A stretch of 64,000 nucleotides of DNA from Scenedesmus sp. PABB004 (taxonomy: Eukaryota), in the NCBI GenBank assembly GCA_014905635.1, contig CM026547.1, forward strand, positions 310,001 through 374,000, written 5' to 3'. Below are positions 3,701-46,156 of the stretch, piece after piece. The position numbers and the translations under genes were made by a program. Each line of letters opens with the position of its first letter. The stretch's first letter is position 1. The notes under the pieces are model-generated. The model was not told where the DNA came from and did not search any database. It worked only from the letters and a program-made list of their open reading frames with translations.

Positions 3701-5155
3701 GCGGGACGCGCGGCCGCCCAGGCCAGCTGCTTCCAGCAGCTGCCGCCACACCTCCATGTCCTCAGCCACCGCGTCGTCCAGCAGCTCCGAGCTGAACGGA
3801 AGGAACTCGCCCGACACAGCCAGCGTGCCCTGCCCGTTGGTGCCTGCCCCGCCGGCGGCGGCGCGGCGGCGGCGGCGCCGTGCGCGCGTCGTGCGCGCGC
3901 CGTGCGCGCTGCCGCGCCGGTGCGCACGCGCGCGCGGCCGCACCCTTGAGCGGCAGCGCGAGCTGCACCCCCGGCGCGGCGGCGAGGTCCGCGACCGGCA
4001 GCATCGCGACCCCGAGCTCAATGTCGCTGCGGAGCTTGTTCTTGTCGTAGACCTGCGGGGTTCACAGTCAAATGGGGGACGCACGGTCAGCGCCGCGCGC
4101 GGGCGGCCACAGTCGCGCGCACGGAAGCGCGTGCGTCTGGTCGGGGGACCGCGTGCTGCCTGACCGAGCTTGCTGCTAGGACCGGCCGAGAGGGGGCGCG
4201 GGGCGCCCGCGGGCCGCGCCAGCGCGCGGCACGCACCCGCAGGCGCACGACGTCCTCGTCGCGGCGGCGCACATACAGCGTATGCGTCTCGCCCTCCCAC
4301 GCGGGGCTCAGCTCGCCCCACGCCACGCCCGTCGTGGCGGTCGAGTCGCCGAGCGTCGCCACGATGTACGGGTCGGAGCCGCCCGTGATCTGCGCGGGCG
4401 GTGGTGGTGGTGGTGGTGCCCGTGGCGGCGCGAGCGGGCACGGCGCGGCGCCGCGACCCCCGCGCGCACGCCACTCACGTTGACTGCCTTGAGCCCCTCT
4501 GCGCGGTGGATGGTGAGGCGCAGCAGGCCCTCATAGTGAGCCAGCAGGAAGGACCTGCGGGGCGCGGCGCGGCCGGGGTCGGCAGCGGTCGCTGGGACGC
4601 GGCGCGGGCTCGGCGGGCGGCGCGCGGGCGGGCGGCGCGCGGCGCCCTCACTTGTCGGTGTAGGTCACCAGCGTCTCGTTCAGCAGGACCTCGCGGTACT
4701 GCTCCAGCGCGCCGGAGGGCTCCAGGTACCTACACGAGAGGCGGCGGCGCGCAGCACGCGTCGCACGCACGCGTCGAGCGCACGCGCCGCGCGCGCCGGC
4801 CGCGCGCGCCGGCCGCGCGCGCCGCCGCCCCCGCGCGCCGCGCGGCGCGCGGCGCTCACGCCTCAAAGGCTGCCGCGGCGAGCGCGACCGCCAGCGGGAG
4901 GTCGAAGGCCGCCGCGGGCTCGGCCGCGCCCGACGCCGCCGCGCAGGCCTGGCGCCGCGCCTGGCGCCGCGGCGCGGCGCGGGGCGGTGGCGACGGTCGG
5001 CGCGGGGCGTCAGGCTGGGGGGTGGGTGGGCGGTCGCGCTCTCTGCTGTTGCCAGGGCGGCCAGCCCCCCGCCGCCAGCTGCGAGCGCGGCGCCGGAGCA
5101 GCGAGCGCCGCGCCGCTGCCGCGCTGCCTGCGCGGCGCTGCATGGCGGCCTGCAT
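722..5155 (-). CDS. HIL1: C2-domain-containing class 3 lipase (HIL1/At4g13550-like, probably plastid); multi-exon
   Basis: Exons give the C2 motif GSDPYIVATLGDS, then VVVAFRGTEQ|VKWKDFVSDVNLIPQAFDVERTGG, VHSGFLAAYDSV, the nucleophile elbow VTGHSLGGALATLCAYDL, MFTFGAPRVGNKAFADEFD, RVTNAADIVP and C-terminal QHMEDFYLATLKEAV. The stop is at 722. The start (MQAAMQRR, Arg/Ala-rich transit-like) is approximate. Confidence 0.85.
2331..2400 (+). repeat. Intronic 10-bp tandem repeat (GGGCGGTTCA)n, degenerating toward TTAGG/TCAGGG units
   Basis: Three perfect GGGCGGTTCA units followed by degenerate copies, inside a lipase intron. Confidence 0.8.
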
Positions 5156-5548
5156 GCGCGCGCGCGGCGAGTGTCGTGCCCTCAAGCCCCCACCCTCAAC
5201 CCGCGGACTCGCGCCTGCAGCCAGCCGCGCGATGCAGCCAGGGCTGCGCGCGGCAGGTGTCCTGCCGCGCCGACAGCACCGGCGCCGCCCGCGCGAGCGA
5301 GGGGCCGCCCTCCTTTGCCGCAGGAGGGGCCGCGGCAGCTGCCGGGCGCCCGTTGAAGCAGCAGCATTGGGCCCCCCGCCCGCGCAAATGCTGCCCGCTG
5401 CTGCTGCGTGCGCTCTGCGCCGCCCCGCTGCCGGCTGCGGCGGTGCTGGTAAGGCGCGGTGGGCGCGGAGCGGTCGACGTCGGATTGGGCGCCGCGCGTG
5501 ATGGGAGAGGGTTCACTGCGCTGCGCGTGACGCGCGACGCGCCGCCGC

Positions 5549-7335
5549 TCACGCTCGCCGCCCATCCCCGCTCGCCGCCTCGCGCACCAGCACGCCCAGC
5601 AGGTAGGGCTGCCGCGCGCCCCAGGCCAGCGGCACGGGCGAGCCGAGCTGCGCCGCGTGCACCGCCAGGCCGCGGTCCAGCCCCAGGGCCGCGCACGCGT
5701 CCGCCGTCGGCAGCAGCAAGTACAGCCGCGCCGCGAGCGCCGCGTCGGGGCTGCCGGGCAGCAGCGAGCCGCCGTCCGCGCCGAGCTTGACCAGGCCGCA
5801 GCGCCGCCGCGCCTCCAGGTACGCAGCGTACGCCCCCAGCCCGCCGCAGCCCGCCTGCTGCGCCCAGCCCGCGGCGGCGCCGGCCGGCACCACCGGCCGC
5901 ACCAGGAACGTGCGGCGCGAGCTGGGCGGGGCGCCCTGGTAGCTCCCGAGCGCCCTGCTGGCGTCGCACCTGCCAGCACAGGCGGCGGTGGGGGGCGTGA
6001 CGCACGTGCGCGCACGCGCAGGCGTGCCGGCGCAGCGCAGCGCGCGTGAGGGCGCGCCCACCTGAAGTGCGCGTCGAGCGTGGGCTGCAGCGCGAGCTGC
6101 GCGGCGCCCCCCAGGCCGGGCGGCTGCTGCACGTCGACCGCCTGCACCGCGCCGTATGCATCGCTGGCCTTGGTCAGCTCGCCGCGCCACAGCACGCGGC
6201 CGGCCGGCTGCAAGGCGCCGCGCGCCGGCTCCGCTGCGGCCGCGCCCCCTGCTGCCGCGGCCAGGCACGTGCGCGCCGCGTGCTCGATCGACGCACGCGC
6301 GAGCCTCGCTCCAGGCGCCGCCGCCGCGGCCGCCAGCAGGCCCGCCCCTGCCGCCGCTGCGGCGGGCTTGCGCCCCGGTCCGGTGTGCGGCAGGCGAGCC
6401 GCCCCGGCCTGCGCCGTGCTGAACGCTGCTGTGAGTGCCTCCCTGCCAGCCGCGCCGCCGAGCGCCGCCTGCTGTGCGGCAGGCGGCATGAACGCCGCCG
6501 CCGGCGGCGTCGTCGCCAGCCCCTGCTCCTGCGTCTGCGTCTGCGCCTGCGTCTGCTGCTTCTGCTGCCGCTGCTTTTTCACACTCTGCTGCCTCTGCTG
6601 TGCCGGCAGCTGCTGCAACGGCGACCGCTGCACCGGCGACCGCTGCACCGGCGACCGCTGCACCGGCGACTGCAGCTGCTGCCCGCCTGGCCCTGGCCCT
6701 GGGCCTGGCTCCGGCCTCGACCCCGGCCCCGGCTCCGGTCCCGGCCCCAGCTCCGGCCCGTTGTGGCAGCCGCTGCTGCGCCGCTGCCGCCGGGGTGCGG
6801 GCGAGGCGGCGTCCGCCTCGTCAGCCGCCGCCTCAGCCGCCGCCCGCCCCACGCTGCTGGCGGCCGCCGGCTCGCTGGCCCGCGCGCGCTTGCCGCCGCC
6901 GCCGTCGCCGCCGCCGCCGCAGGGGCGGCCGGCGTTGCGGTGCTGTTCGCCCGCGCGCGGGCTCGCCGTCGGCTCCAGCGCCAGCTCCTGCGGCGAGAAA
7001 AAGCCGCGCGGCGCCGCCGCGGCGCCCCCCGCCGCGGCGGCGGCGCGCGCTGCCGCAAGCGCGCGCATGCCGTCTGCGACGTCGGCCGGCGCCGCCGCGC
7101 CCGCGCGCGCGAGCTGGAGGAGGTGCGCCGCGTAGACCTGCTCCAGCGCGGCGTCGCCGGCGCAGCGCGGCGCGGCGTGGGCCGCCCACTCGCGGAGCAG
7201 CGCGGGCGTGAGCCCCGGCACGCCCGGCCGCGGCAGGCGCGGCCAGCGCAGGAACGCGTTCCACGCCAGCATGAGCTGCCGCTCCGGCAGCGTGGTGTCG
7301 GCCTCGCGGTGCAGCGCGCGCAGGTCGGCGTGCTG

Positions 7336-7378
<43 letters not shown>

Positions 7379-9270
7379 CAGGGCTCTTTGCGCGCGTGCG
7401 GGCGCGCGCGCGCGTGCGCGAGGCGGCGCCGCGCGGCTGATGGCACGCGCGCACGCGGCGGCGGTGGGGCTGAGGGCCACCCCAGGTGCAACGCAGCGCA
7501 GCGCAGGGCTCACCCGGTACTCAGCGTCGTCCAGCTCGTCGTCGCTGTCGAGGGCCAGCGCGCTGCGCGCCTTGGGCTGCGCCGCCTGGCTGTGATAAAA
7601 CACGCCCAGGCCCACGCCGGCGGCGGCAGCGTCCGCCGCGCTCACGGCGGCGGCGCGCCGCTCGGCGTCGCGCCCGCGGCCGCGGCCGCGGCCGCGGCTG
7701 GCCCCGCGCCCGCGCCCGCGCCCGCGCTGCGAGGCAACTGCCGCAGCAGCGATGCCGGCCGCGGCGCCGCGGCCCCGGCCACGCCCCCCGCTGCGCCCCC
7801 GCCCGCGCTGCGAGGCGGCAGCCGCCGCCGCGGCTGCAGCAGCGGCGCCAGGCGTGACCGCGACCCTGCTGCTGCGACCGGTCGCCTCGACAGCGCCTGC
7901 TGCCTGCTCCCGCTCCCGCGGCGGCGGCTCCGGCAGCTCGGCCGCCGCCGGCGCCTCGCTGCCACCCGGTGCCCGGTCGTCGCACTCGCGCTTGCCGCCC
8001 GCGCCCACACGCTGCAGCGCCACCGCGGCCGCGCCGCGCCAGGAGGGGTTGAAGTCGCGGCCTGGGCTCAGCAGGCCGAGGCGGCGGAGCTCCGCGCCGC
8101 GCTGGCGCCGCGAGACGGCAAAGTCGCGTGCTGAAGCGCCCTCGCGGCCCGCGGCGCCGTCGGGCGCTGCCGGCGGCAGCGAGACGCCCTCATGGGCCAG
8201 CCACACGCGCAGCTCGCCCGGTGCAGATGCGGCGCAGCCGAGCTGGTCGTGGCAGAGCCTGAAGTGCGCCGCCAGCGCGGCGAGGCTGCCAAACACGCCG
8301 CGGCACAGCACGCACCGCCCGCCCGGCAACAGCAGCGACACGGCCGGGGGCCCACTGGCGCGGCTGCGCAGCACGTCCCCGTCCAGGTGCGGCTCGTCGT
8401 CCGGGTCGGCGCCGGGCAGCAGCCGAAGCCACAAGTCGTGCGGCGCCTGCTTTGCCTCGACCCCGCCGACTGCAGCGGGCGCTGCCGCACCCGGCGGCGG
8501 CGCGAGCGCCAGGCGCAGCGCCAGCTGCAGCTCAGGCCAGCGATACGGCAGCTGGCAAGGGCTCCCGCCGACGGCTGCGTGCTGCGGCGTGACGCTCAGG
8601 TAGGTCTTGCGCTGCTGCTGCTGCTCCGGCTGCTGCTGCTCTGGCTGCTGCTCTGGCTGCTGCTCTGGCTGCTGCTGCTCTGGCTGCCGCTGCTCTGGCT
8701 GCCGCTGCTCTGGCTGCCGCTGCTCTGGCTGCTGCTGCTGCTGCGGCTGCTGCTGCTCTGGCTGCGGCTGCTGTTCTGGCTGCTGCTCTGCGGCGCCAGC
8801 TGCTGCTGGCGCCTCGGCCACCTCCCAAACGGACGCCTGCGCCACTCCGGGTGTGAGCGCGACCGCGCTGCCCGCACCGCACAGCGCCAGCGCTGCCGGG
8901 GTCAGCGGCACGCCCGCGGCGCCCGCGGCGTGCGCTCCGCCGCCGGCGTCGGCGCCGCCGCTGCTGCTGCCCGGCTGCTCAGCGGTCAGGGGCACGGCAG
9001 CCCACATGACAGGCACCACGCCGCTGGGCCATGCGCTGCCGGCCGCGGCGGTGTGCCAGAGCCCAAACAGGCGCTCCGGCGTGAGGCTGCAGCTCACAAG
9101 CCGCCCCGCTGCAGGGCCGGGCGCCAGCGCGCGCACGTCGGGCAGGGCCTCCCGCACCAGCAGCAGCAGGTGGGGGCTGGCCATCCCTGCAAGGCCGCCC
9201 GGCGGCAACGGCAGGTCCACGCCCGTGCCGCCGCCGCTGCCGCCCGCAGCCCGCTGGCCGCCGGGCGGCG

Positions 9271-9326
<56 letters not shown>

Positions 9327-10234
9327 GCCTGCTGCTGCTGCGCCTGCTGCTGCTGCGCCTGCTGCTGCTGCGCCTGCTGCTGCTGCAGGGCGCCACCCGC
9401 GCCCGCCGCAGCAGCCGAGCCCTGCCCGTCAAGCCGCGGCCGCTTGCTCGCCGGCTCGCCGCTGTCGTCCGCTGTGTGTGGCCGTGCAAACGGCGCGTGC
9501 AGCAGCGCCGCGCTGCGCGGCTCAAACTCCTGCGGCAGGCGGGTGCGCGAGGTCGGCGGCGGCGCGCCCAGGCTGACAGCGAGGGCGGCTGCGCCCGGCA
9601 CGCACCAGGCGCGCCGCGCCGCCGCCGTCCGGGACTGGGATGCCGTCCGCCAGCACCGCGATCACCGACAAGCTGCTGAAGCCACTGGCGTCTTCGAGGC
9701 CTGGTGTCGCGAGCGTGAAGGCGTCCAGCTGCACCCGCAGCACGCCGCCGCACCTGGCCGTCAGCAACGGGAAGGGCGGGAGCAGGGCGGGGGCGGCCTG
9801 GGCCGGCGGGGGCGCGCTGCGCGGCCGCAGCTGCCCGGGCGCGCGCGCTGCGCCGCTGCTCCGCGGCCACGCGCGGCGGCGCCCGCAAACCTGCTGGGCA
9901 GTCGTGGTGCGCGCCGGGGCCGGGCTTGCAGGGCGTGCGTGCGGTGGAGGAAGAGCGCCTGCGCCGCGCGCGGGCGCGACCAGCAGCGTTTGCGCGGAGC
10001 GGCGGCGCGCGCGCGCGGTGCTGCGGCGCCCTCGTGCCAGCGGGCGTCCACGCCCTGCCGGCGGGCGCCTCGCACCGGGCGGCCATCGCCGCCACCGGCG
10101 GCCGCAGCCCAGAGCGCGCCGCAGGCGAGCAGCGCTGCGCCGGCTTCGTCTGCCGCCTCCTGCTGCTGCCGCCACTCCCGGGACGGTTGCGTGTGTGGCC
10201 ACGTAAGGCGCGGTAGCTTCTTGGCCCGAGCCAT
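5549..10234 (-). CDS. Su(z)12/EMF2-like Polycomb (PRC2) VEFS-box protein with C2H2 zinc finger and putative C-terminal SPOC domain; multi-exon
   Basis: N-terminal ALFLHRT (compare the SUZ12 ZnB segment PIFLHRT). C2H2 finger RCVLCRGVFGSLAALAAHFRLCHDQL at ~8316-8240. VEFS box GVFYHSQAAQP...DSDDELDD|...TTLPERQLMLAWNAFLR...AHLLQLARAG at ~7605-7060. SPOC-like LWRGELTK...YLEARRRCGLVKL...LYLLLP...YLLGVLVR at ~6200-5580. ATG at 10234, stop at 5549. Confidence 0.75.
8610..8790 (-). repeat. Coding (Q)QPEQ repeat / CAG-rich tract
   Basis: Imperfect 12-15 bp units encoding QPEQQ/QPEQR in the Su(z)12-like gene. Confidence 0.8.
9272..9388 (-). repeat. Coding polyglutamine (CAG)n tract
   Basis: A long CTG run on the + strand encoding QQQQAQQQQA...Q on the - strand. 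Confidence 0.9.
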
Positions 10235-10979
10235 GCGGGCGCGCCGCGGCGCCGCGCGCTGCTCGCAGCGCGCTGCTCGCGGCGCGCAGCCAGGGGCCCT
10301 GGCTGCGCCTGCCGCGGCGCGCGCGCTCTCTAACCCAGCTGTGGATGGCCAGGGACGCTGCTCGGGGAACCACGCGGCCTTGGGCGCCGCCACCGCGCCA
10401 GAACCGCGGGAGCGTGTTTTCAGCGTCGGTGCTGCGCGCGTTGTGACATCGTGATCGCGATCGGAGGAGCGCGCGCACTCTGCGTGAGAGAAGGAGGAGC
10501 AGGCCATGCTGTTACCGCACGCCCCGCCGCCGTTTCGCCCGCCCCGCCGCCGGCCAGCGTGGCCCAGCACGCGCAGAGCGCACTGCCGCGGGCTGCCGGG
10601 CTGGCCGGCGCCCGCCGCGGGGTGCCGCGAACGGTCACGGCGGCCCCGACGGCGGCGCCGGCCGCCGCTGCCGGCGCGGGCCAACCCCTCGACGTCGTCG
10701 GCACTGCTGCTGCTGCTGCTGCTGCTGCTGGCCGCCCCACACACGGGGCGGCGCAGCGGTGGTGTCAATGGCAGTTCGCACACGTCGGCACACACACGCC
10801 GCGCGGCCGCGGCGCGCGGGCCCGGCCGCTGCCGGCGCCTGCGCGCGCGCGCCGCCGGAGGCTGCTGCTGCGCGCGCGCCGGCGCGCGGGGGCGCGCGGC
10901 CGCGCCGCGGCACTGCGGCGCGGCCGCGCGCCCCCGCGCGCCGCGCGCCTCTGCCCGCGGGCAGAGGTGCGTGGCCTGC

Positions 10980-12084
<1,105 letters not shown>

Positions 12085-15851: not shown

Positions 15852-17942
15852 TCACTCGCGCCCGACGAGGCCGAAGAGGCCCATCAGCTCAAACACGCCC
15901 ACCACCAGCTCAACTGCGGCGGGGCAGCCGGGGCGGCGGCGTCAGCGCGGCCGGCGGGGCGCCGCGCGCAGCGCCGCGCTGCTCCCCAGCTGTCTGCGGC
16001 GCCGCGCACCGGCGATGAGCCAGATGATGATCCACTCCATGCGCACGCTGTGGTGGTTCTGCTGATGCCCACGCAGCATGTCCAGCATCTCCTGCGCCGC
16101 GCGCACGCGCGGCGGGCCGGTCGCGCGCGGCGCGGCGCGGTGCAGGCCGGCAGCGGGGCGGCGCGGCGGCGGGGAGGCCGTGGCGCGGCGGCGGGGCGCG
16201 CCTGCAGCACGGTGAAGCGCGCGTTGAGCACCTCCACGCGCGTGTCCAGCTCCAGGTAGTCGCACGCGCGCTCATACAGCACCTGCAGCTGGTCCGGCGC
16301 GCTCCAGAAGAACTCGGGCGTGTCCAGCACGCTGCTCAGCAGGTTGACCGCGCTGCGGGGCGCGGCGCAACGCGGCCGCAGCCGGGGCGGCGCGGCGCCA
16401 GGCCGGCGCGTCGGCGCGCGGCCGGCGGGGCGGCGACGCGCGGCAGGGCGGGCGCGGGCGCGCGGGGCCGCGCCTGCGCTGCAGGAAGAGCTGCCCGATG
16501 CGCTGCGCGACCTCGCGGCTCTCCACGTGGACCGTGCCGTGCACCGCCAGCGACTGCGCGGCGGCGCGGCGCGACGCGCGGCGGTCGGGGGCCGCTCGCG
16601 GGCCGGCGCGCGCGGCGCCTGTCGCCCCCAGGGGCGGCGCGGCGCGGGCGCGCGCCTGCGGGAGGTGCTTCGTGGCCATGACCAGCTCCAGCACGCGCTG
16701 CTCCGACACGCAGAGCTTGGTGCTCTGCGCCAGCGCGTGGCAGATCGCGAGCTTGGTCAGGTGGTCGCACGCGTGGTGCCGACTGATGGTGATCGTGTCC
16801 TGCGCGCGGCGGCGGCGCAGCGCGGCGGTCGGGTGGGCGGCGCGGGCGCGGGCGGGCGGCGCGGCGGCGGCGGCAGGAGTGCGCGCGGCGCGGCGCGGCA
16901 GCCGGGCGCGGGCGCGCACGTTTTGCATGGACGGCGGCGCCGCGCTGGAATAGTGATATTCAAACTGGTCCACCTCCACGTCGCGCGTCGGCAGCGGGCC
17001 GACCTGCGCGGGGCGCGCGACACTCGCGAGCACCTCCTGTTCCTGCTTCGCGGTCAGGCCCCAGCAGCCTGCGCTCCGCGGCAGCGGCGGCGCGGGGTGT
17101 GGGCGAACGACGCCAGGCCGCGCCGCGTGCGCGAAAGCCCCGGCGCCCCGCAACCGACGGCTGTGCACACGCAGCAGGCGCCGCGCGGCGGCGGCAGCGG
17201 CGCGCCGCGGCTCACAGACGACGCCATACTCGAAGAAGAAGACATCAGCCGGCTCGAGCGGCCCGTCGCCGCCATCGAGCGGGGCCACCGGCGGCAGCGC
17301 GACGTGGAGCACCTCGCTGTGCCCGCTCGTCACGGGCGCGCCGGCGTACTTGGCCGCCACGCGGCCCTCGAGCGCCTCGCGGTCAAACGACTCGGCGATG
17401 CAGTACACGGTCACGCGGCCGCGGCTGTCAGGGATCGTCGGCTCAATGTCCTCAAACAGGCTGCTCGCGAGCGTCTGCTGCGCCGCCGCCGCGGGCTGGC
17501 CGAGCGCGTCGACGCCGAGCAGGTCGCCCTCGGGCGGCTGCTCCGGCCACGCCGGCGGCGGCGCCGCGGCCGCGGCCGCGGCCGCCGCGGCCATGTCGTT
17601 CGTGCTGCTGCTGCTGCGCGGGAGCAGGACGAGCTTGTCCTTCTGGCGCAGCTGCGCCGGCTTCTGGCTCGGCACGACCGCCGCCGGGAGCTTCAGGCGC
17701 GGCGCCACCATCGCCGCGGCGCCCGGCCGCGGCGCCGGGGGCCGCACCTGTGTGGCCGAGCGGCTGCGCCGCTCCGGCGCCACGTCGCGGTCGCGATCCC
17801 GGCGATGCCCCGGGAAGCGCGCCGGGACCGGCTGGCCGCTGAGCAGCGGCTGCTGCGCCTGCGCCTGCTCCGGGTACCCCCCCGAGAGCGCCGAGTAGTG
17901 GCCCTGGCCCTGCTGCACCCAGGACGGGCCTGGGCGCTCCAT
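15852..17942 (-). CDS. RMND1/Rmd1/Sif2-family (DUF155) protein; multi-exon
   Basis: GRVTVYCIAESFD, DVFFFEYGVV..WG, KLAICHALAQSTKL, IGQLFLQRSAVNLLSSVLDTPEFFW, YLELDTRVEVLNARF, and C-terminal TM segment MEWIIIWLIAVELVVG. Confidence 0.92.
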
Positions 17943-18330: not shown

Positions 18331-21300
18331 TCAGTCGTAGGAGAGGTCGGCGTCCGGCGCGGCGGCGCCGGGGTCGCGCCGCGGGCTGTCGTCGACCGCC
18401 GGCACGCGCGCGCCCTCGGGCAGCACCTGTAGCTGGCCCGGCCCGCCGCCGCCCGCGCCGCGGCTGGCGCGCCGCACACGGCGCTTCGGCTCCGCCGCTG
18501 CAGCCGGGCCGGGCGATGCGCTGCTGCTGCTGCTGCTGCTGCGCCGCCTGCGAACGCCCGCAGCGGCTGCGGGCGCCGACGGCGGCGCCTGCGCCGTTGT
18601 CGCCTGCTCCGGCGCCTCCGCCGGCTGCTCCGGCACCATCACCACCTGCTGCTGCTGCTGCCCCTGCTGCCCCTGCTGCTGCTCCGCCTGCTGCCAGGGC
18701 AGGCCGCCGCCCTGCCGCGGCGCCGCCCGCGCCGCCGTGCCGCCGCGCCGCGGCGGCGCGGGCGGCCCGCCGCCGCCGGCGCCCGCGGCCACCTCGCGGC
18801 GGCGCACGGCCGCGTCGACCGCCGCGCCGGCGCGGGGGTCGTGCTCGTACGCGACCACGATGACCTCGGGCTTGCGGTTGTTGAACCAGCGCGCAGCGCG
18901 CGCACAGCCGTCCATCACGCCCCGCTCGACCTGCCCCAGCGACGCGTCGCCCGGCAGCTTGGCGACCGCCGCCTGCACCGCCTGCGCGTGCCGCGCGCGG
19001 CGGGGGGCGCCGCACGTCGGCGGCCCGCCCGGTCGCCGCCGGCGCGCGAGCGCGTGCGGCCGGGCTGCCGGCGGCCGGCGCCGGGCGCTGCCGGCCGCAC
19101 CTGGTGCAGGACGTCGAGCAGGCGGCCCTGGTCCGTCCACATCCCCCGCGTCGTCAGCCGCGCGCGGCAGCTCAGCAGCGCGCCGCCGCCGCCGCCGCCG
19201 CCTCCGCCGCCGCCGCCGGCGACGCCCGTCCAGGCCGCCGACTTGGGGCGCAGCACGTCCACCGCGACGACCACGATGCCCTCAAACGCGAGCACCTCGC
19301 GCTCAGGGATGGCCATCTCAGACGCTGTACCGGTGCCCCTGGCGTGCGGCGCGCGGCGCACGCGGCGCCGCGCCGCCGTCGGCGCGCGGCGCGCCGGAGC
19401 GCGGAGCGCTGCGCCGCGCGCCCTCCCGCCGCCGCGCGCGCCCCGCCGCGGGGCACGCACTTGCCGCCGTCGTTGAACAGGCGCAGCAGGTCCACCTCAC
19501 CGATGACGCTGATCCCGCTGCGCTGCTGCCCGCCACCGCCCTCCGCCGCCGCGGCCGCAGCCGCAGCCTCGGCGCGCAGCCCCGACGCGGCCATGGAGCC
19601 GGTCGAGAGCGTGTTGCGGTTACGGCGCTCGTGCACGCCGAGCATCTGGCCGTTCTTGATGACCTGCGGACGCGCCCAGGGCGGCCGGCGCGGCGCGGTC
19701 GCGTCGCACGCGGGCGGCGCCACGCCGCGCCGCACAGCGAAAACCGCCGCCGCGTCGCATCGAGCGCGCCGCCGCCGCCGCCGCCGCCGCACCTCTGTGA
19801 ACTGCACGCCCGCGCGCTCGCGCGCAAGGCGGGCGTGCTCCACCAGGAAGCTGTACTCGCCGTGGACCGGCAGGAAGTGCTGGGGCTTGACAAACCGCAG
19901 CACCTCTTCCAGCTCGCCCTGGCACGCGGCACAGGGGAGGGGGGGGAGGGACAGGGGAGGGACCGCGGCGGCGGCGGTGCGAGACGGGTGGGTGAGCGCA
20001 GCATCACGGCGCAGCTGCGGCTGGGCCGCCGCCGTGTGGCAGGCGCCGGCGCGTGGCAGGCGCCGGCGCGTGGCAGGCGCCGCCGGCGGCGCGCCTGGTA
20101 GGCGTGGCCGCTGACGTGGAGGTTGTCGGCCCGCCCCGCGACGACGCGCGCCCCCTGCAGCGCGAGGCTGTTGAGCATCTGTGAGACCTTGGTCTCATTG
20201 CCTGGGATGACCTAGGGGGGGGGGGTGGCCCGGTGGCGGGCGGGCGGGGTGGCCCGGTGGCGGGCGGGCGCGGGCGGGCGGGGAGGCGGGCGCAGAGGCA
20301 GGCGGGCGGGGAGGCGGGCGGGCGGCGGCGTCAGCGGGCTGCGATGCGGCGAGGCGAGTGCAGCCGCGCTCGGCTCGGCCCGGCTCGGCTGCGCTCGGCG
20401 CACCTTTGCCGAGTAGAGCACGAGATCTGAGGGCGAGATCTTGAGCGCGTTGCTCGCGCCGCGCGACGCGAGGCTCAGCTGCGCGCGGCTCTCCGCCTGC
20501 GCGGCGCGGCGCGGCGCGGCGCGCGGCGGCGGCGTGTGCGCGCCGACGGGCCGGCGCCGGGCGCGGGCGCGGCGGGGGCGACGCGAGGCGCGGGGGCGAA
20601 GGAGACGCGGACCAGGTCCGCTGCCTGCGCACCTGGCTGCCTGTGGTGACGATGAGGACTTGGTTGGGGTCCATGTGCGCCAGGTTGTCCGGCTTGACCA
20701 GCTCAGCGGGGCTCAGCGGCGCGCTGCGCGTCCAAGCGGGCGCGGCGCGGCCCGGCGTCAGCCCCGTCCGGCGCCGCCGCACGCGGCAGGCGCGGCGGGC
20801 GCCGCCCTGCCTCCCGCGCGTGGTCGCGCAGTGCAGCGCGCGCGTGCGCGGCCGCACCGCCCGTCGCGCGCGGCTGCCTCCAGGTAGGTGTTGAGGCTGG
20901 TGCCGATGAAGCAGATGCGCCGCCCCGACGCGTCGGCGGCGGCCTTGACGCTCGCGAGGCGGTGCAGGTTTGACGCAAACTGGAGCGACGCGGCGGGGGC
21001 GGCGGCGGCGAGTGCGTGAGCGCGTATGTGGCCCGTGCGCGCGTGGGCGGCTCCCAAACGCGCCAGCGGCCCCCGCCCTCCGACCAGCACGCGCGCGCAC
21101 CTGCGTCACGACGACGCGGCCCTTGCCCGCGTGGTCGAGCACCTTCTGGCAGAGGCTCTCCTGCACGACGCGCTCGCCGGGCGTGCGGCCGGGGGAGAGC
21201 ACGTTGGTCGAGTCGCTCATCATCAGGCTCACCGGCTCCTTGCCTGACCGGCGGGGGCGGCAGGCGGGGGCGGGGCGGGGCGTCGCGGCGGGCGCGGTGT

Positions 21301-23535: not shown

Positions 23536-24460
23536 TCACGCCCCAGCGGCCTCCCCCGGGACCTCGCCGCCGAGCAGCCGCGCCGCCGCGGCGCCGCGGC
23601 GCCCGCGCAGCTCCGCCACGAGCGCGTCGACCTGGGCGCGCGTGTCCTCGAGCGCGGCGCCCGTGTCCAGCACATAGTCGGCGCGCGCGCGCTTCTCCGC
23701 GTCCGGGACCTGTCGGAGGCGGGGCGCCGGGGCGCGCGGTCGGGCACAGCACGCCGGAGCAAGCCGCGCCGCCACCGTGCCGCGCCGCGCCGCGCCGCCG
23801 CGCCTGGCGCGCCAGGATGGCGTCGAGCTTCTCCGCCGTCATGCCCGGCCGCGCGAGCACGCGCGCGCGCTGCGCGTCTGCCGGCGCGCTCACGACGGCG
23901 ACCGCGTCCAGCCCGCCCTCGGCCTTGGTCTCGAACAGTAGCGGTATGTCAAACACCACCAGCGGCGCGCCCGCGGCCGCGTGCTGCGCGGGCGCGCGGG
24001 CGGGGGCGCGGGCGTGGGCGTGGGCACGCACGCGCCCGCGAGAGCCGCCGCTGCTGGGGCCGCCGCCGCGCGCCGCCGCGCGCACCGTGCGCACAAAGTC
24101 GAGCCGCGCCGCCTCCACGAGCGGGTGCACGATGCCCTCCAGCCGCCGCATCGCCGCGTCATCGCCCACAACGAGGCCGCTCAGCGCGGCGCGGTCGACG
24201 CCGCCGGCGCCGCCGGGCGGCACCGCGCCCGGGAACGCGGCGCCCACGGGGCCGACCGCGGCGCCGCCGGGGGCGTACAGCGCGTGCACGACCGCGTCGG
24301 CGCACAGCACGGGCACGCCGGCGGCGGCGAGGAAGCCCGCCACGGTGCTCTTGCCCATCCCGATCGAGCCGGTGAGGCCGAGCAGGAACGGCGGCGCCGC
24401 TGCCGTCGCCGCCTGCTGCTGCTCCTGGCCCTGCTGCGCCTGCTGCCTGCCGTCGGCCAT
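23536..24460 (-). CDS. coaE: Dephospho-CoA kinase (bacterial CoaE-type), 3 exons
   Basis: P-loop [16 protein letters not shown], then [35 protein letters not shown] and [37 protein letters not shown]. Confidence 0.93.
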
Positions 24461-28512: not shown

Positions 28513-28552
<40 letters not shown>

Positions 28553-28945
28553 AGACCGCGAACTGGCGGGCGACTGGCGCGCGCGCCTGGCGGTGGCGGA
28601 GCAGCTGCCGGTCGTGGCGCGCGTCCTGAGCCGCAGTCAGGTGGCCTACTGCGTCTGGCCGCTGCTGCTGACGCTCGCCAAAGACCCGGTCCACGCGGTG
28701 CGCGCGGCAGCGGCCGCGCAGGTCGGCCCTCTGCTGCTGCTGCTGCCGGAGCACGAGGAGGCGCCGTGCGAGGCGGTGGTGGCGGGCAGCTCGTCGAGCG
28801 ACGAGGCGGGCGGGGGCGCCGCGCCGGCGGTGGTGGCGAGCGAACCCAGCGCCGGCGCGCCGGCGGAGGTCGCGCCGGCGGAGGCCGCGCGGGCAGGCGC
28901 GGCGGCAGCGCTGAGGGCCGAGGCGGAGTCCGCAGCGGCGCCCCC

Positions 28946-31055: not shown

Positions 31056-32298
<1,243 letters not shown>

Positions 32299-34015: not shown

Positions 34016-34431
34016 GTTTGTAGATGCAGCGGGAGCGTCGTGGTGGGACGTCGGTGACTGGACGCCGCGCGCCGGCTGCGCGCTCCTCGGGCAGCGCGGC
34101 GGGCGTGCCGCTCATGCGCAGGCCCTGGAGACGGGCACAGGCTTCCCCGATGCCGCCGCCCGCGGTCACACAACCCTCCCGGTGCAGCGAGCGTCGTGCG
34201 ATCCGCTCGCGCCCGCCTCGGGTCCCCTTCGCCTGCAGGCGGCGGCGGTTGGCGGCGCTGCTGCTCGCGCGCCCGCGCGCCGCACAGCCCCGGGGCGCCC
34301 CCCCTGAACGCGCTGTCGGCGCCGTGACCGAGCGCAGCGCCCGGTTCCAGCACCGCGGCCGCGCGCCGGTCCCGCAGCCCGCAGCGCGGCGGTCGCCATC
34401 AGCAGCAGCGGCGCCGCGCCGCGCAGCAGCC

Positions 34432-37400
34432 ATGGACGACATCAGCAGCCTCCTCTCGGCGCTGCAGAGCACTCAGGAGAAGAAGAGCAGCGTGCGGCTG
34501 AGCGAGCGCAACGTGGTGGAGCTGGTGATGAAGCTGAAGCAGCTCGGCATCTTTGGCGACGAGCTGCTGCATACGATCAACGGCCGCGAGTACATCACGA
34601 CGTCGCGGCTCAAGGCCGACGTTGCGGCCGCGCTGCGCCAGGCGGGCGGCCGCCTGGAGCTGAGCGAGCTGCCCGCACTCGTGGGCGTCGACCTCGTGCA
34701 CTGCGAGAAGCAGGCGCGGCGCGCGGCGGCCGGGCGGCGCGGCGCCGGCGGCCGCCCGGCGGCGCGCGGCGGCGCTGGCGGCGGCCGTGCAGCACGGCGC
34801 GCGTGGCGGGGCGCGCTTGCTGACCGGCAGCGCGCCGCCGCCGCGCGCAGGCGGCGCTGATCGTGGCGGAGAGCGGCGGCGCGGTGCGCGAGGCGCAGGG
34901 GGAGCTGATGACGACCGACTACTTCGACGCGCTCGCTGTGGAGGTCAACGACCTCCTGCAGGCGCGTGGGGGCCAACGTGGCGGCAGCGGCGCCTGCGCG
35001 CGCGGGCCGACGTGGCGGCAGCGGCGCGGGCCGCGCCGCGGCGCGCTCAGGGCACGCGGCCTGCCGACGTCACCGCATCCGCCGTCGCGTCTGCCGCAGG
35101 AGTCGGGCGTGCTGAGCATGGCCGACCTGGCGGTCGCGTACAGCCTCAACACCGAGCTGCTGCGCGGCGCGGTCGCGGCGCGCGTCGGCGCCGGCATCGC
35201 GGGCCAGCTCGACGGCGGGCTGCTCTTCACGCCGGCGTACGTGCGCAACGTCAAGGCCCAGCTGCGCGGCGCGCTGCGCGGCACCGACGCGCCCGCCGCG
35301 CTCGCGGGCCTCGTGCGCGAGCTCGGGCTCGAGGGCGCCGGCGGCGCCGCGCCGATGGTCGCGGGCCTCGTGGAGGAGCTGCTCGCCGAGGGCGCCGTGC
35401 GCGGCAGCACCAAGGGCGGCGGCGGCGGGTGGGTGCCGGCGGTGTACACCGCCGCGCAGGCGGGCGCGGTCGCGGGCTTTTACGCGCAGAACGGCTGGGT
35501 CCCGTACGAGCTCGTGCGCAAGTCGGGCATCAGCGGAGAGCGAGCCTACCTGCGCGCAAACTTCCCCGACGGCACGCCGCTCGAGTCGGGTGGGTTGCGT
35601 TGCGGCGGCGCGGCGGCGCGGCCGCGCGGCGCGCGCGCCAGCGCCGCGGCCGGCGCTCACGTGCGCGGCGCGCGCGCCGGCGCACGTGCGCAGTGTACGT
35701 GTCGCCGTCGCTGGTGGGCCAGGCCGAGGCGGCGCTGGACGAGGCGCTGCGCAACGCGTCGTGGCTGGACGTCGCGACCGTGCTGCCGCCGTCGCTCGGC
35801 GCGGGCGACGTCGCGGCGCTGCTCGAGCTCTGCGGCGACCCCGCCAAGGACGGGCGCGGCCAGGCGCGTGACGGCGGCAGCGGGGCCTGCGCGCACGCGC
35901 GCGGGCAAGCTGCGCCGCCGCCGCGGCAGCGCCGACGCCGACGCGGCGCCGCGCCGCGCCGCCGCTGCGCAGATCCTTGCGAGCACGTGCGTGGTCGGCG
36001 CGCCCATCATCGACGGCGTGCGCGAGGCGGCGCAGGCGCTCGCCAAGCAGGAGGCGGACAAGGCCGCGGCGGAGCGCAAGCGCTCGGCGGGCGCGGCGGC
36101 CAGCAACGGCGCCAACAACGGCGGCGCCGCCGCTGGCGCCGCCGGCGGCAAGAAGGGCGCAGCTGCGTCCAAGGTGGGCCCGGCCGCGGCACTGCGGGCT
36201 CCTCCCGCGCGCGCGCGCGCGCCTGCCGCTGAAGCTCCCCGCGCGCACAACGGCGCGTGGCGCCGCTCGCACAGGACGACGCCGACAGCGACGATGACTG
36301 GGGCATGGGAGGAGGAAAGAAGGGCAAGAAGGGCAAGGCCGGCGGCAAGCCCGCCAAGGCCGGCGGCGCCAAGGGCGGCGGCGGCGGCGGCGGCAAGCAG
36401 CAGCAGAAGAGCGGCGGCGGCGCCGGCGAGCCCGGCGCGGCGCTGAGCGTGGCGGCGCTGGCGGCGCTGGTGCTGGAGCAGCACCCCGACATGGAGGACG
36501 CGGGTGCGCGGCGCGCCACGCAAGGGCGCCGCGCACGCGCGCGCTGCGCACCAGCCTGCGGCACCCAACCACCGTTTTTTGCTGTGCGCGCTGCGCTTCC
36601 GCCTCCTGTCGGCGCAGGCCCGAGCGGCGGCCTCGCCAAGGCGATCGCAGAGGTGGTGCGGCCCGCGGCGCTGGCGGCATACCAGGTGCGCCGCGGGGCG
36701 GCCCAGGCCGCGCGGTGCCGCCTCCGCCCCTCCCCCTGCACAGTGTGCACTCAACCGTGCTCACCCGCCCGCCCCGCGGCCTGCGCCCCCGCAGGAGGCG
36801 CTCGCGAGCGTGTTTACGAGCGGCGCCGAGGCGCGGCGCAAGCTCAAGGACGCCGCGCAGCGCGGCCTCGAGGAGGCGTTCACGCTGCTGCAGCTCTACG
36901 AGCGCGGCTGCGAGCTGGTGCAGGTCCGCGCACCGCGGGCGCGCGCGGGCGCCGGCGGCGCGCGCGCCGCGCAGCCGGCGCCGGGCGCCCGTCGCCGGCG
37001 CGCCCACCGCCGCCGCGCCGGGCCGCGCGCCGCCGCCGCACGCCGTGCGCGCCGCAGGCGGACGAGGCGACGCTGCCGGTCATGCAGCGCCACCTGCTGC
37101 GCAGCACGGGCACCGACGCGCTCGACTGGCTGCTCTCGTGGTGCAAGTGGGAGTTTGAGGAGCAGGAGCCGCCCGGCGACGCGAGCGCCGCGCTGCACGC
37201 GTTCGCCAGCCCCGGCGAGCGCTCGGCGCTGGTCAAGGCGCTGCCGCCGGACGTGGGCCAGCCGCTGGCCCGGGCGCTCGAGGCGGCCAACGGCGCCGAC
37301 GCGCAGGTGCGCGGGGGGCTTGGCCTGGGCAGGCCGCGCGCCGCGTCGCGTGCCGCCGCGAGGCGCGGCGCGGCGCTCACGGGCGCACGCGCCGCCCGCC

Positions 37401-37848
37401 GCGCGCGCCGCAGGAGCTGGTCGCGGCGCTGGAGGCCGCGGCGGGGGAGTGCGGGATGCGGCTGCGGCGGCTGGACAAGAAGGGCGAGAAGGCGCTGCTT
37501 GCGGGGCACAAGGCGCGGCTCATGGCGGCGCTCGACGCCGAGGCGGCGCCCGCGCCTGCGCTCGCGCTCGCGCTGCCGCTGCTCGCGCTCAAGGTCGGCG
37601 GCCGGCTCGTCAACGTGCCCGGCCGCGCGATCGGCGGCGTGCTGGCCGCGCTCGCGCCGGACATGCCGCCGGACGACGCCGCCGCGGTCAGCCGCTTCCA
37701 CGGCCTCGTCGTCGACAGCCTCAAGCTCCAGGCGCGCGGCGGCGCCGCCGACGCGGACGGCGGCGGCGCCGAGGCGGCGGCGCTGGGCGAGGCGCTCGTG
37801 GCGGCGCTGCCCGTGCTGAAGGCGCTCGTCGGCGTCGGGGGCGCGTGA
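34432..37848 (+). CDS. UFL1: E3 UFM1-protein ligase 1; multi-exon
   Basis: LQSTQEKKSSVRLSERNVVELVMKL...LLHTINGREYIT, GGRLEL, GELMTTDYFD, LFTPAYV...AQLRGALRG, FYAQNGWVPY, a Lys-rich segment, QRHLLRSTG and LDKKGEK. Confidence 0.93.
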
Positions 37849-39254: not shown

Positions 39255-40818
39255 ATGGAGCGCTGGCTGCCCGCCCGCCTGTGGGGAGGCGCTCCGCGAC
39301 TCTTCCGCGCAAAGGAGGACGCGACGCAGAGAGACGCCCACATCGAGCTCGAGCTCGTCGGCGGCGACAGCGGTGGCGCTCAGCTCGTGGCGCTGCGGCA
39401 GCTCAGCGCGGCAGAGGCAGCGCAGCAGGGCGCCGGTGCGGAGGAGGAGGAGGAGGGGGCGCCGCAGCAGGCGCTGCCGCCGCCGGCGCTCGACGCGGCG
39501 GCAGCGGCAGCCGACCCGCTGAGCGAGCCGGAGCAGCCGCTGCCGGAGCAGCAGCAGCAGGAGCAGCAGACAGAGCAGGAGCAGGAGCAGCAGACAGAGC
39601 AGGAGCAGCAGCAGGAGCAGCAGACAGAGCAGCAGCAGTGCGCGTGGCCGCGCGCCAACGGCGGCGACAGCGAGCACTGCCCGCCGGTGGCGAGCGCAGG
39701 CGCGGGCCGCAGCGTTGGCCGCCGAGCCACCACCGCGGCTGCCGCGCCCGAGGGCGACGGCGACAGCGGCCGTGGCAGCAGCGGCGGCGGCGGCAGCAGT
39801 GGCGGCGGCACCAGTGGCGGCGGCACCAGTGGCGGCGGCGCCGGGGGCGCCAGCAGAATTCCCCGCGTCTCGGGCCCGCGCAGCTGGCCCGCGGAGCTGC
39901 TCCCCCCTGCGCAGCTCTGGCCGGAGGAGGCGGACGACGCCGCCATCAGTCGGGAGGAGCGGACGCTGCGCAGCTGGCTCAACTCGCTGCTGCGCCGCAG
40001 CCGCGGCAGCAGCGGCGGCGCGGCGGGAGGCGGCGCGGCGACGCACCGCGCCAGCAGCAGCGGCGACGGGGGCGCCGCCAGCGGCGCGCGGGCGGGCGGG
40101 CAGCTCGGCGAGCTGTCGGCGCTCAGCGCGCCCGTGCCGGAGCCGTGCGCCGACGGCGGCGGAGGCGCACGCGGCGCGCCTGCCGCAGCCAGGCCGGCGC
40201 CGCCGCGCGGCGACTTTAGCTTTTCCAGCATCAGCAGCCTGTTTGGCGACGAGGTGCGCTCGGGCGTGCTGCTGCTGGAGCTGCTGGACCACTGGCGCCC
40301 GGGCTGCGTGGACTGGCGCCGCGCCAACCGCACGTTTGAGGGCCAGGCAGCCCAGCTGCGCTGCATGGAGAACCTGGACCTGGCGCTTAAGCTTGCCCAG
40401 GTGCGCCGCGGCCCTCGGGCCGCGCGGGTGCCGCCGCCGCCGCCGCCGCCGCCGCCGCCCCGCCGGCGGCGCCCGAGGTGCGGCCCGCCGCGCCTGCCGC
40501 CCGCCGCGCAGTGCGCGCTGGGGCTGCGTCTGGTGAGTTGCAGCCCGCGGGACGTGTTCCTGGGGCGGCGCAAGATCATTCTGGGGCTCTTCTATCAGCT
40601 GATGCGGTGGCACACCTTCGAAACGCTCGACCTGCTCGCCGCGGCGGCGGCGCGTGGCGGCGCGGCGCCGTCGCAGCAGCAGCAGGGCCAGCAGGAGCGG
40701 GAGGCGCAGCAGCTGCAGGAGCAGCAGCAGCAGCAGCAGCAGGACGAGCGGCAGCAGCAGCAGCAGCTCGAGGGGCGGCCGGGCGAAGCGCAGGCGCCGC
40801 CGCGGGGCCCCGGCCCGC

Positions 40819-40879
<61 letters not shown>

Positions 40880-42047: not shown

Positions 42048-46156
<4,109 letters not shown>

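What the first reader, a model, noticed from the sequence alone, without database searches (positions are those of the whole stretch)
5549..10234. Su(z)12/EMF2-like PRC2 subunit fused to a SPOC domain
Seen in sequence: ZnB-like FLHRT, a C2H2 finger, a VEFS-box-like segment and a SPOC-like segment (LWRGELTK ... YLEARRRCGLVKL ... LYLLLP ... YLLGVLVR) occur in that order. The second half of the VEFS box and the start of the SPOC-like domain lie in one uninterrupted reading frame (~7385-6062), so the fusion is not produced by my exon joining. Established knowledge: animal SUZ12 and plant EMF2/VRN2/FIS2 have the VEFS box as their last conserved domain. SPOC domains (SPEN, RBM15, PHF3, DIDO, plant FPA/BORDER) read phosphoserine marks such as the Pol II CTD and act in transcription, m6A and 3'-end processing. 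Inference: this protein could covalently couple the H3K27 methyltransferase complex to Pol II or RNA-processing state. I do not know this architecture from any described PRC2 subunit.
Basis: partly seen in the sequence, partly recalled or inferred. Interest (0 to 1): 0.85.

Follow-up and report, generated by a model that had tools for sequence, protein, structure and literature searches.

The report
Divergent SUZ12-like gene with extra tail
A very GC-rich alga-like genome carries a highly diverged gene for the SUZ12 scaffold of the Polycomb H3K27 methylation complex that most likely continues into an extra C-terminal module resembling a SPOC phosphoserine-reader domain, but the SPOC identity could not be confirmed.

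Summary
They fit a five-exon GT-AG gene (about 10234 to 5549, 1,399 codons).

- **SUZ12 identity: supported, sub-threshold.** The two segments that hit Pfam at all hit SUZ12-specific families, in the right order. VEFS-Box scores E 0.014 (15.7 bits, cut-off 23). Zn_SUZ12 scores E 0.025 (14.7 bits, cut-off 28).
- **SPOC identity: not confirmed.** No exon piece hit Pfam SPOC. No solved SPOC chain matched. Single-sequence AlphaFold2 gave pLDDT 37. What remains is an ordered set of SPOC-like motifs, recalled from memory, that co-occur nowhere else in the window's six frames.
- **Fusion: most parsimonious, not proven.** Other evidence is better: codon-position GC periodicity holds the VEFS frame through two thirds of the linker, that frame has no stop, no frame has a stop in 6578-6177, and tandem-repeat periods are multiples of three. 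The last 292 nt of the linker (6499-6208) look non-coding.
- **Missing evidence.** No relatives were found and no RNA run was listed. The spliced protein could not be submitted to Pfam or folding.
- **Odds.** SUZ12 homologue about 0.9. One protein about 0.7. SPOC fold about 0.5.

The parts
9891..10234 (-). Tentative exon 1. It starts at ATG 10234, contains FLHRT at 9952-9938, and ends at donor CAG|GTTTGC. The 5' end is uncertain.
   Evidence: Sequence. Periodicity is weak (p 0.018). No Pfam hit. An upstream in-frame ATG near 10506 is also possible (read).
9606..9753 (-). Exon 2 (RCGGVLRVQLDAFTLATPGLEDASGFSSLSVIAVLADGIPVPDGGGAARL)
   Evidence: Flanked by acceptor CCAG|G and donor CTG|GTGCGT. 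Coding periodicity GC2 0.55, GC3 0.90, p 5e-4. No Pfam hit.
7514..9529 (-). Exon 3 (672 codons). It holds poly-Q and QP repeats, the C2H2 finger, an RG-rich stretch and the VEFS N-half.
   Evidence: Open frame. Periodicity p 6e-41. Translation.
8249..8314 (-). C2H2 zinc finger of SUZ12 type (C-x2-C-x12-H-x4-H)
   Evidence: Pfam Zn_SUZ12 is the top hit: E 0.025, 14.7 bits, cut-off 28. It also appears.
7514..7603 (-). VEFS-box N-half (VFYHSQAAQPKARSALALDSDDELDDAEYR)
   Evidence: Pfam VEFS-Box positions 20-47 of 137: E 0.014, 15.7 bits, cut-off 23. It is the only hit for this piece.
7333..7513 (-). Intron 3 (181 nt, phase 0; CGG|GTGAGC ... CCGCAG|C). An alternative in-frame acceptor at 7384 would add a poly-Pro stretch.
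   Evidence: Sequence. No periodicity (p 0.66). Contains a (GC)n repeat of period 2. The same donor and acceptor forms occur in the ferredoxin introns.
7042..7332 (-). VEFS-box-like C-half (HADLRALHREADTTLPERQLMLAWNAFL...AHLLQLARAG...)
   Evidence: Strong coding periodicity: GC2 0.60, GC3 0.97, p 4e-11. No Pfam hit on its own. The resemblance to the VEFS consensus is by eye and from recall.
6208..7041 (-). Low-complexity linker (278 codons) in the same frame as the VEFS C-half
   Evidence: No stop in this frame. Periodicity is kept over 7041-6500 with repeats masked (p 0.005 and 0.002) but is flat over 6499-6208 (p 0.36). 10 of 11 TRF rows have periods that are multiples of 3.
6062..6207 (-). 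SPOC-like N part (PAGRVLWRGELTK...LQPTLDAHF + AG of the junction Arg codon), which ends exon 4
   Evidence: Strong periodicity in the VEFS frame: GC2 0.52, GC3 0.96, p 5e-7. No Pfam or PDB hit.
5970..6061 (-). Intron 4 (92 nt, phase 2; CAG|GTGGGC ... GGCAG|G)
   Evidence: Sequence. The coding frame changes across it. Reading through gives an Arg/Ala/Pro/Cys-rich string that lacks the motifs found after splicing.
5549..5969 (-). Exon 5, the SPOC-like C part (P0002, 139 aa: ...YLEARRRCGLVKL...LYLLLP...YLLGVLVRE...) plus TGA at 5551-5549
   Evidence: The strongest periodicity of the gene: GC3 0.98, p 4e-12. No Pfam, PDB or library relative. AF2 pLDDT 37.

Best explanation
One minus-strand gene of five exons (about 10234 to 5549, 1,399 codons) encodes a very divergent SUZ12/EMF2-type scaffold subunit of PRC2.

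Reading along the protein:
- an uncertain N-terminus;
- a SUZ12-type C2H2 finger;
- an RG-rich stretch;
- a VEFS box split by an intron;
- about 280 residues of low-complexity linker, possibly partly spliced out in frame;
- a roughly 190-residue C-terminal globular module, split by a 92-nt intron, that is probably a SPOC-type beta-barrel.

Mechanism, all inferred:
- The finger and VEFS box would hold and activate the E(z) methyltransferase, as in animal SUZ12 and plant EMF2.
- The appended module would dock the complex onto phosphoserine-bearing partners such as the Pol II CTD or RNA-processing factors. It would use the junction Arg (HFR|C) and the RRR cluster before GLVKL.

Shown here: the motifs, the splice-compatible model, the coding signal and the weak SUZ12-specific profile hits. 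Inferred: that it is one transcript, the SPOC fold, and any binding.
For: **SUZ12 identity**
- The only Pfam hit of 7514-7660 is VEFS-Box (E 0.014).
- The top hit of 8192-8641 is Zn_SUZ12 (E 0.025).
- Both families are SUZ12-specific and the hits are in the canonical order.

**Gene model**
- All four introns are GT-AG, with donors GTTTGC, GTGCGT, GTGAGC and GTGGGC and CAG acceptors.
- The same forms occur in the two introns of the neighbouring ferredoxin gene. Splicing those restores its [11 protein letters not shown] cluster motif.

**One protein**
- The VEFS frame has no stop from 7511 down to 5185.
- No frame has a stop between 6578 and 6177.
- The only in-frame ATGs after the VEFS start are 7272, 7068 and 6489.
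- With tandem arrays masked, linker parts 7041-6845 and 6844-6500 keep GC3 0.95 and 0.91 against GC2 0.68 and 0.58 (p 0.005 and 0.002). All 7 non-coding comparators are flat (p 0.06-0.72).
- 10 of 11 TRF rows in the linker have periods that are multiples of 3. The periods 2, 28 and 14 fall in predicted intron 3, intron 1 and the region upstream of the ATG.

**C-terminal module is coding**
- p 5e-7 for the N part and p 4e-12 for exon 5.

**SPOC-likeness**
- Three recalled signature patterns were tested: Y-h-x2-[KR]-x-[KR]-x-G-h-h, h-Y-h-h-x-P and L-h-G-h-h-h.
- They occur 1, 1 and 2 times in 127,996 six-frame residues. They co-occur, in SPOC order, only here.
- None of 300,000 composition-preserving shuffles of exon 5 had all three.
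- The predicted splice places an Arg at the junction.
Against: **SPOC**
- No Pfam SPOC hit on P0002, on three sub-pieces of it or on the N part, even at E<=10.
- phmmer against 177,635 PDB sequences finds no SPOC chain.
- phmmer against 1.84 billion representatives gives only 2 hits, both repeat proteins with unrelated Pfam matches.
- AlphaFold2 on P0002 gave pLDDT 37.
- The motif patterns were written from memory while looking at this sequence, so one search shows they are not compositional. It does not show homology.

**SUZ12**
- Both profile hits are below Pfam's cut-offs.
- The VEFS C-half and exons 1-2 give no hit.

**One protein**
- The last 292 nt of the linker (6499-6208) show no periodicity (p 0.36) and GC3 of 0.84, as in non-coding DNA.
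- An in-frame ATG sits at 6489, at the upstream edge of that zone.
- The open frame itself is expected by chance.
- No transcript data and no relative in any collection.
Confidence: 0.38

Rival explanations
1. It is one gene and one protein, but the C-terminal ~190 residues are a lineage-specific extension of some other or novel fold. The SPOC-like motifs would then be convergent hydrophobic/basic patterns.
For: The evidence for one gene is as in the main explanation. Every SPOC test that could be run was negative or uninformative:
- Pfam
- PDB phmmer
- library phmmer
- AlphaFold2 at pLDDT 37
Against: - The three-pattern combination occurs nowhere else in the window's six frames.
- The domain length, its C-terminal position and a chromatin-protein context fit SPOC (established knowledge; SPOC review).
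- Exon fragments of clearly conserved genes in this window often miss Pfam too: 65 of 87 fragments had no hit.
- SPOC domains are reported to have low overall sequence conservation (passages of PMC9834408).
Confidence: 0.3
2. There are two coding units. A SUZ12-like protein ends upstream, and a separate small SPOC-like protein starts at ATG 6489. It would be made from its own promoter or as a second ORF of a polycistronic transcript.
For: - The periodicity of the VEFS frame fades at about 6500.
- The only in-frame ATG of the linker lies at 6489.
- The open frame across the linker is not itself evidence of continuity.
Against: - The upstream ORF has no stop. The VEFS frame has none at all, and no frame has one between 6578 and 6177.
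- To end at the out-of-frame TGAs (6835, 6823, 6581) the gene would have to leave the VEFS frame. Yet that frame keeps coding periodicity down to about 6500.
- The segment 6489-6208 would be coding in this model too, so its flat profile is not explained either.
- No space is left for a 3'UTR plus a promoter.
Confidence: 0.17
3. It is not a PRC2 subunit at all. The finger and 'VEFS' hits would be chance matches in a low-complexity, GC-driven protein.
For: - Both Pfam hits are below the curated cut-offs.
- No homologue was found by any sequence search.
- The VEFS C-half is not detected on its own.
Against: - Two independent segments about 190 residues apart each have a SUZ12-specific family as best or only hit among 24,736 models, in the right order.
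- The FYHS...DSDDE and E-x-x-x-M-x-x-WN-x-F patterns match the VEFS consensus (recalled).
Confidence: 0.08

Closest known systems
SUZ12 / Su(z)12 / plant EMF2-VRN2-FIS2 (PRC2 scaffold subunit)
   Same: - A C2H2 finger is followed by a VEFS box, giving weak Pfam hits to Zn_SUZ12 and VEFS-Box in that order.
- It is a nuclear-type low-complexity protein.
   Different: - It is far more divergent: no hit above cut-off and no BLAST- or phmmer-level relative.
- It carries long poly-Q, QP, RG and PG inserts.
- About 470 residues follow the VEFS box, which is the last domain in described members (established knowledge).
- Published surveys disagree on whether core chlorophytes such as Chlamydomonas keep Su(z)12 at all (passages of PMC5405695; PMC8788455).
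SPOC domain proteins (PHF3, DIDO, SPEN/SHARP, RBM15, plant FPA)
   Same: - It is a C-terminal module of about 190 residues.
- It has an ordered W-x-G start, a mid-domain Arg, a Y..R.R.G-h-h helix-strand motif, an h-Y-h-h-P strand and a terminal L-h-G-h-h-h strand. These motifs are recalled; their uniqueness within the window was tested.
   Different: - There is no profile, sequence or fold match in any test run here.
- The architectures listed in the 2023 SPOC review are TLD-SPOC, RRM-SPOC, API5-RRM-SPOC, F-box-like-SPOC and DUF3715-SPOC. None pairs SPOC with a VEFS box (section 5 of PMC10111866, read in full).

Membership tests
SUZ12/EMF2 (PRC2 subunit) | VEFS box (Pfam PF09733) above threshold | tested here: inconclusive
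   The N-half alone scores E 0.014, 15.7 bits, against a cut-off of 23. The C-half alone gives no hit. The box is split by intron 3, and the joined sequence could not be submitted.
SUZ12/EMF2 (PRC2 subunit) | SUZ12-type C2H2 zinc finger (PF23320) N-terminal to the VEFS box | tested here: inconclusive
   Zn_SUZ12 is the top hit: E 0.025, 14.7 bits, against a cut-off of 28. The C-x2-C-x12-H-x4-H spacing is read directly from the sequence. The order finger-then-VEFS is met.
SUZ12/EMF2 (PRC2 subunit) | N-terminal ZnB / WDB / C2 region | tested here: not met
   Exons 1 and 2 and the first part of exon 3 give no SUZ12-related Pfam hit. 'FLHRT' is present, but its ZnB meaning is untested.
SUZ12/EMF2 (PRC2 subunit) | Assembly with E(z) and ESC homologues; needed for H3K27 methylation | not testable with these tools
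   No genome is held for this window. No partner gene appeared among the window fragments scanned.
SPOC domain (PF07744) | Profile match to the SPOC family | tested here: not met
   No hit at E<=10 for P0002, for 5552-5920, 5552-5860 or 5660-5968, or for 6064-6207. HMMER filters drop matches above about E 0.1-0.25. The joined domain was not testable.
SPOC domain (PF07744) | Distorted beta-barrel fold like PHF3, SHARP, FPA or RBM15 | tested here: inconclusive
   AlphaFold2 on exon 5 alone, with no alignment, gave mean pLDDT 37 and pTM 0.31. The model is too poor for a fold search.
SPOC domain (PF07744) | Conserved Arg and basic patch that anchor phosphoserine (R1248 in PHF3, R3552 in SHARP; passages of PMC9834408) | not tested
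   The candidates are the junction Arg (HF-R-C) and RRR before GLVKL. I placed them by eye against a recalled alignment. No structure or alignment is available to place them properly.

The most novel reading that the evidence does not exclude
A PRC2 core scaffold (SUZ12-type) is covalently fused to a functional SPOC phosphoserine reader. H3K27 methyltransferase recruitment would then be wired directly to the phosphorylation state of Pol II or of RNA-processing factors. No paper in the searched library mentions this architecture. It would sit in a green-algal lineage where SUZ12 is often reported as missing.
Probability: 0.3. Interest if true: 0.8.

Novelty: new variant of a known kind. Interest (0 to 1): 0.5.

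Why it matters
- **If the fusion and the SPOC fold hold.** This would be a natural case of PRC2 hard-wired to a reader of transcription-coupled phosphorylation. It would offer a direct handle on how Polycomb silencing senses transcription.
- **If only the SUZ12 part holds.** The locus still shows that a SUZ12 orthologue can be almost invisible to standard searches in extremely GC-rich algae. That bears on published claims that Su(z)12 was lost in several chlorophytes (PMC5405695, PMC8788455; passages read).
- **Method point.** In genomes near 80% GC, open reading frames carry no information. Codon-position GC and repeat period have to be used instead.

Tried and rejected
**Searches for relatives (all empty)**
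- The search for homologous proteins with P0002, lengths 'longer'.
- The same tool with exon 3 residues 330-672 and 632-672, lengths 'near'.
- phmmer of P0002 against 1.84 billion representatives gave 2 hits. Both are repeat proteins with unrelated Pfam matches, and I rejected them as spurious.
- The search for related loci in metagenome contigs and viral contigs found no relative.

**RNA evidence**
- The look-up of sequencing runs for 5300-10400: no RNA holder listed. This says nothing about expression.

**Genome and earlier notes**
- No genome is held for the window.
- Earlier notes of this scan show nothing for this place or sequence.

**Structure**
- Complex prediction on the two halves of the SPOC-like module returned 'no answer' (score 0.00; controls were not run). 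I do not use it as evidence either way.
- AlphaFold2 of exon 5 alone was too poor for a fold search.

**Attempt to obtain reference SPOC sequences**
- I fetched cyanobacterial ferredoxin loci to get a genome handle.
- I then searched PF07744 through the genome search. The 14 control genomes held no match, so this was a dead end.

**Other checks**
- There is no TGTAA poly(A) signal on the minus strand in the first 16 kb, so it cannot mark the 3' end.
- Many frame-preserving GT...CAG candidates exist in the linker (85). None can be chosen without RNA data.
- One paper search was too broad to be useful.


Full report
**Setting**

The window is about 75-84% GC throughout. At this composition stop codons are rare:
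- There are 0.007-0.009 stops per codon in all six frames.
- 53 stop-to-stop ORFs have at least 423 codons.

Open frames therefore carry no information, and I judged the finding on other grounds. The window holds many short-intron eukaryotic genes. These include ferredoxin, UFL1, GFAT, SMC, a U2A'-like LRR protein, CoaE and an RNase J-like protein. A plant-type ferredoxin ends at 10980, directly upstream of the finding on the same strand.

**Observation**

- FLHRT at 9952-9938.
- A C-x2-C-x12-H-x4-H finger at 8314-8249.
- VFYHSQAAQP...DSDDELDDAEYR at 7603-7514.
- ...ERQLMLAWNAFL...AHLLQL... from 7332.
- LWRGELTK at 6192-6169.
- YLEARRRCGLVKL, LYLLLP and YLLGVLVR in 5821-5585, followed by TGA at 5551-5549.

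**Gene model**

The pieces join through four GT-AG introns.

| Intron | Coordinates | Length | Junctions |
|---|---|---|---|
| 1 | 9890-9754 | 137 nt | CAG\|GTTTGC ... CCAG\|G |
| 2 | 9605-9530 | 76 nt | CTG\|GTGCGT ... CGCAG\|G |
| 3 | 7513-7333 | 181 nt, phase 0 | CGG\|GTGAGC ... CGCAG\|C |
| 4 | 6061-5970 | 92 nt, phase 2 | CAG\|GTGGGC ... GGCAG\|G |

- The two ferredoxin introns next door use the same forms (GTGCGG and GTGAGC donors, CAG acceptors). Splicing them restores the canonical [11 protein letters not shown] cluster motif, so they calibrate the splice signals.
- The model gives 344+148+2016+1271+418 = 4,197 nt, or 1,399 codons.
- The 5' end is tentative. Exon 1 has only weak periodicity (p 0.018), and an upstream in-frame ATG exists.
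- Intron 3 has an alternative in-frame acceptor at 7384 that would add a poly-Pro run.

**Is it SUZ12?**

- Whole-frame translations gave only a faint Zn_SUZ12 hit.
- On exon-level pieces, VEFS-Box is the only Pfam hit of 7514-7660. It scores E 0.014 and 15.7 bits against a cut-off of 23, over model positions 20-47 of 137.
- Zn_SUZ12 is the top hit of 8192-8641, at E 0.025 and 14.7 bits against a cut-off of 28.
- Both are below threshold. They are nevertheless two independent segments that each pick a SUZ12-specific family out of 24,736 models, in the canonical order.
- The VEFS C-half alone is not detected. It resembles the consensus only by eye and from recall.
- phmmer against PDB sequences finds no SUZ12 chain and returns only RG-repeat matches.
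- I put SUZ12 homology at about 0.9. Formal membership remains inconclusive.

**Is the tail SPOC?**

Everything I could run was negative or uninformative.
- Pfam: no hit at E<=10 for P0002, for three sub-pieces of it or for the N part.
- PDB phmmer: only chance hits to a beta-lactamase, a regulator and TRAF6, at 12-15 bits.
- phmmer of P0002 against 1.84 billion representatives: 2 hits, both spurious multi-repeat proteins.
- AlphaFold2 without an alignment: pLDDT 37.

These tests are weak, for four reasons:
- The domain is cut by intron 4, and I could not submit the joined sequence.
- There are no relatives from which to build an alignment.
- SPOC domains are described as poorly conserved in sequence (PMC9834408, passages).
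- In the same window only 22 of 87 periodicity-selected exon fragments gave any Pfam hit at E<=0.01. I sent 87 of the 90 fragments listed, dropping three obvious antisense artefacts. Several fragments of evidently conserved genes gave none.

On the positive side, three signature patterns that I recall for SPOC occur 1, 1 and 2 times in the 127,996 residues of all six frames. They co-occur only here, in the right order. They never co-occurred in 300,000 shuffles of exon 5. The patterns were written post hoc, so this excludes a compositional artefact but does not show homology. I put the SPOC fold at about 0.5.

**Is it one protein?**

P(no stop) for the linker is 0.445 with its own composition and 0.156 with window composition, and two antisense frames are open as well. 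Other evidence is better.

1. *Codon-position GC.*

| Region | GC2 | GC3 | p |
|---|---|---|---|
| VEFS C-half | 0.60 | 0.97 | 4e-11 |
| Linker 7041-6845, tandem arrays masked | 0.68 | 0.95 | 0.005 |
| Linker 6844-6500, tandem arrays masked | 0.58 | 0.91 | 0.002 |
| SPOC-like N part | 0.52 | 0.96 | 5e-7 |

   All four regions are in the same frame. Seven non-coding comparators are flat (p 0.06-0.72). They are four introns, the ferredoxin-to-ATG spacer, one further ferredoxin intron and the 3' flank.

2. *Stops and starts.* That frame has no stop from 7511 to 5185. No frame has a stop in 6578-6177. The out-of-frame stops at 6835, 6823 and 6581 lie where the VEFS frame is still periodic. The only in-frame ATGs are 7272, 7068 and 6489.

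3. *Tandem repeats.* 10 of 11 TRF rows inside the linker have periods of 3, 6, 12, 15, 18 or 30. The arrays with periods 2, 28 and 14 fall in predicted intron 3, intron 1 and upstream of the ATG.

Against one protein, the last 292 nt of the linker (6499-6208) show no periodicity (p 0.36) and GC3 of 0.84, like non-coding DNA. They start right at ATG 6489. They may be an in-frame intron. A 375-nt candidate runs from 6582 to 6208 and ends in a good CCTTGCAG acceptor just before the SPOC-like start. Alternatively they may be young Ala-rich coding sequence. A two-gene reading has no stop for the first gene and no room for a promoter. I put one protein at about 0.7.

**Relatives, expression and literature**

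- No relative of any part was found in the protein collections or in metagenome and viral contigs.
- No RNA run was listed.
- No paper in the library holds both 'VEFS' and 'SPOC' or both 'EMF2' and 'SPOC'.
- Only two papers hold 'SPOC domain', 'SUZ12' and 'domain architecture' together; the one listed is about XIST.
- The 2023 SPOC review lists the TLD-, RRM-, API5-RRM-, F-box-like- and DUF3715-SPOC architectures, and none with a VEFS box (section 5, read in full).
- Surveys of algal PRC2 disagree on whether Su(z)12 is present in core chlorophytes (passages).

**Verdict**

This is a real gene and very probably a highly diverged SUZ12-type PRC2 scaffold. It most likely carries an extra C-terminal globular module. 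Whether that module is SPOC is open. The joint probability of a true SUZ12-SPOC fusion is about 0.3. The decisive steps are profile and fold analysis of the spliced protein, and transcript data.

Noticed in passing
window 1-64000: GC is about 72-84% in every 500-nt bin examined (first 16 kb). All six frames are largely open: the mean stop-to-stop ORF is 121 codons, and 12 ORFs have at least 775 codons. ORF-based reasoning is therefore unusable in this genome.
   Followed up: yes
window 10980-12083 (-): A plant-type [2Fe-2S] ferredoxin gene with three exons. Its two introns (about 173 and 551 nt) use GTGCGG and GTGAGC donors and CAG acceptors. Splicing restores [11 protein letters not shown]. 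I used it as the splice-signal calibrator.
   Followed up: partly
window 6499-6208 (-): A 292-nt Ala-rich zone inside the linker has no codon periodicity (p 0.36) and non-coding-like GC3 of 0.84. It begins at the only in-frame ATG of the linker (6489) and ends at a strong CCTTGCAG acceptor (6208) just before the SPOC-like start. It could be an in-frame intron or an alternative start.
   Followed up: partly
window 6584-6571 (-): A conspicuous AT-rich spot, GTGTGAAAAAGCAG, in an otherwise roughly 80% GC gene. It holds an out-of-frame TGA (6581) and a possible GTGAAA donor.
   Followed up: no
window 7326-7378: A (CCG)17 run on the minus strand sits just upstream of the intron 3 acceptor. With the alternative acceptor at 7384 it would encode a 12-residue poly-Pro insert inside the VEFS box.
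   Followed up: no
window 4087-4764 (-): The next gene downstream on the same strand looks by eye like a C2-domain protein (GLLRLTIHRAEGLKAVNVSG ... SDPYIVATLGDS...). That leaves about 800 nt for the 3' UTR and spacer of the SUZ12-like gene.
   Followed up: no
window 34405-37845 (+): An E3 UFM1-protein ligase 1 (UFL1) gene. Exon fragments hit E3_UFM1_ligase, UFL1 and UFL1_C, down to E 1e-27.
   Followed up: no
window 12500-63900: Other neighbours identified from exon-fragment Pfam hits:
- DUF155/RMND1 (16142-16850, -)
- RNase J-like RMMBL (19745-19981, -)
- Dephospho-CoA kinase (23789-24247, -)
- HEAT-repeat protein (28530-28853, +)
- CH-domain protein (40182-41276, +)
- GFAT with GATase and SIS domains (42264-45652, +)
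- U2A'-like LRR_9 (52597-53885, -)
- SMC C-terminus (61327-61959, -)

By eye, a histone H3 lies at 31360-31713 (-). No PRC2 partner was seen.
   Followed up: no
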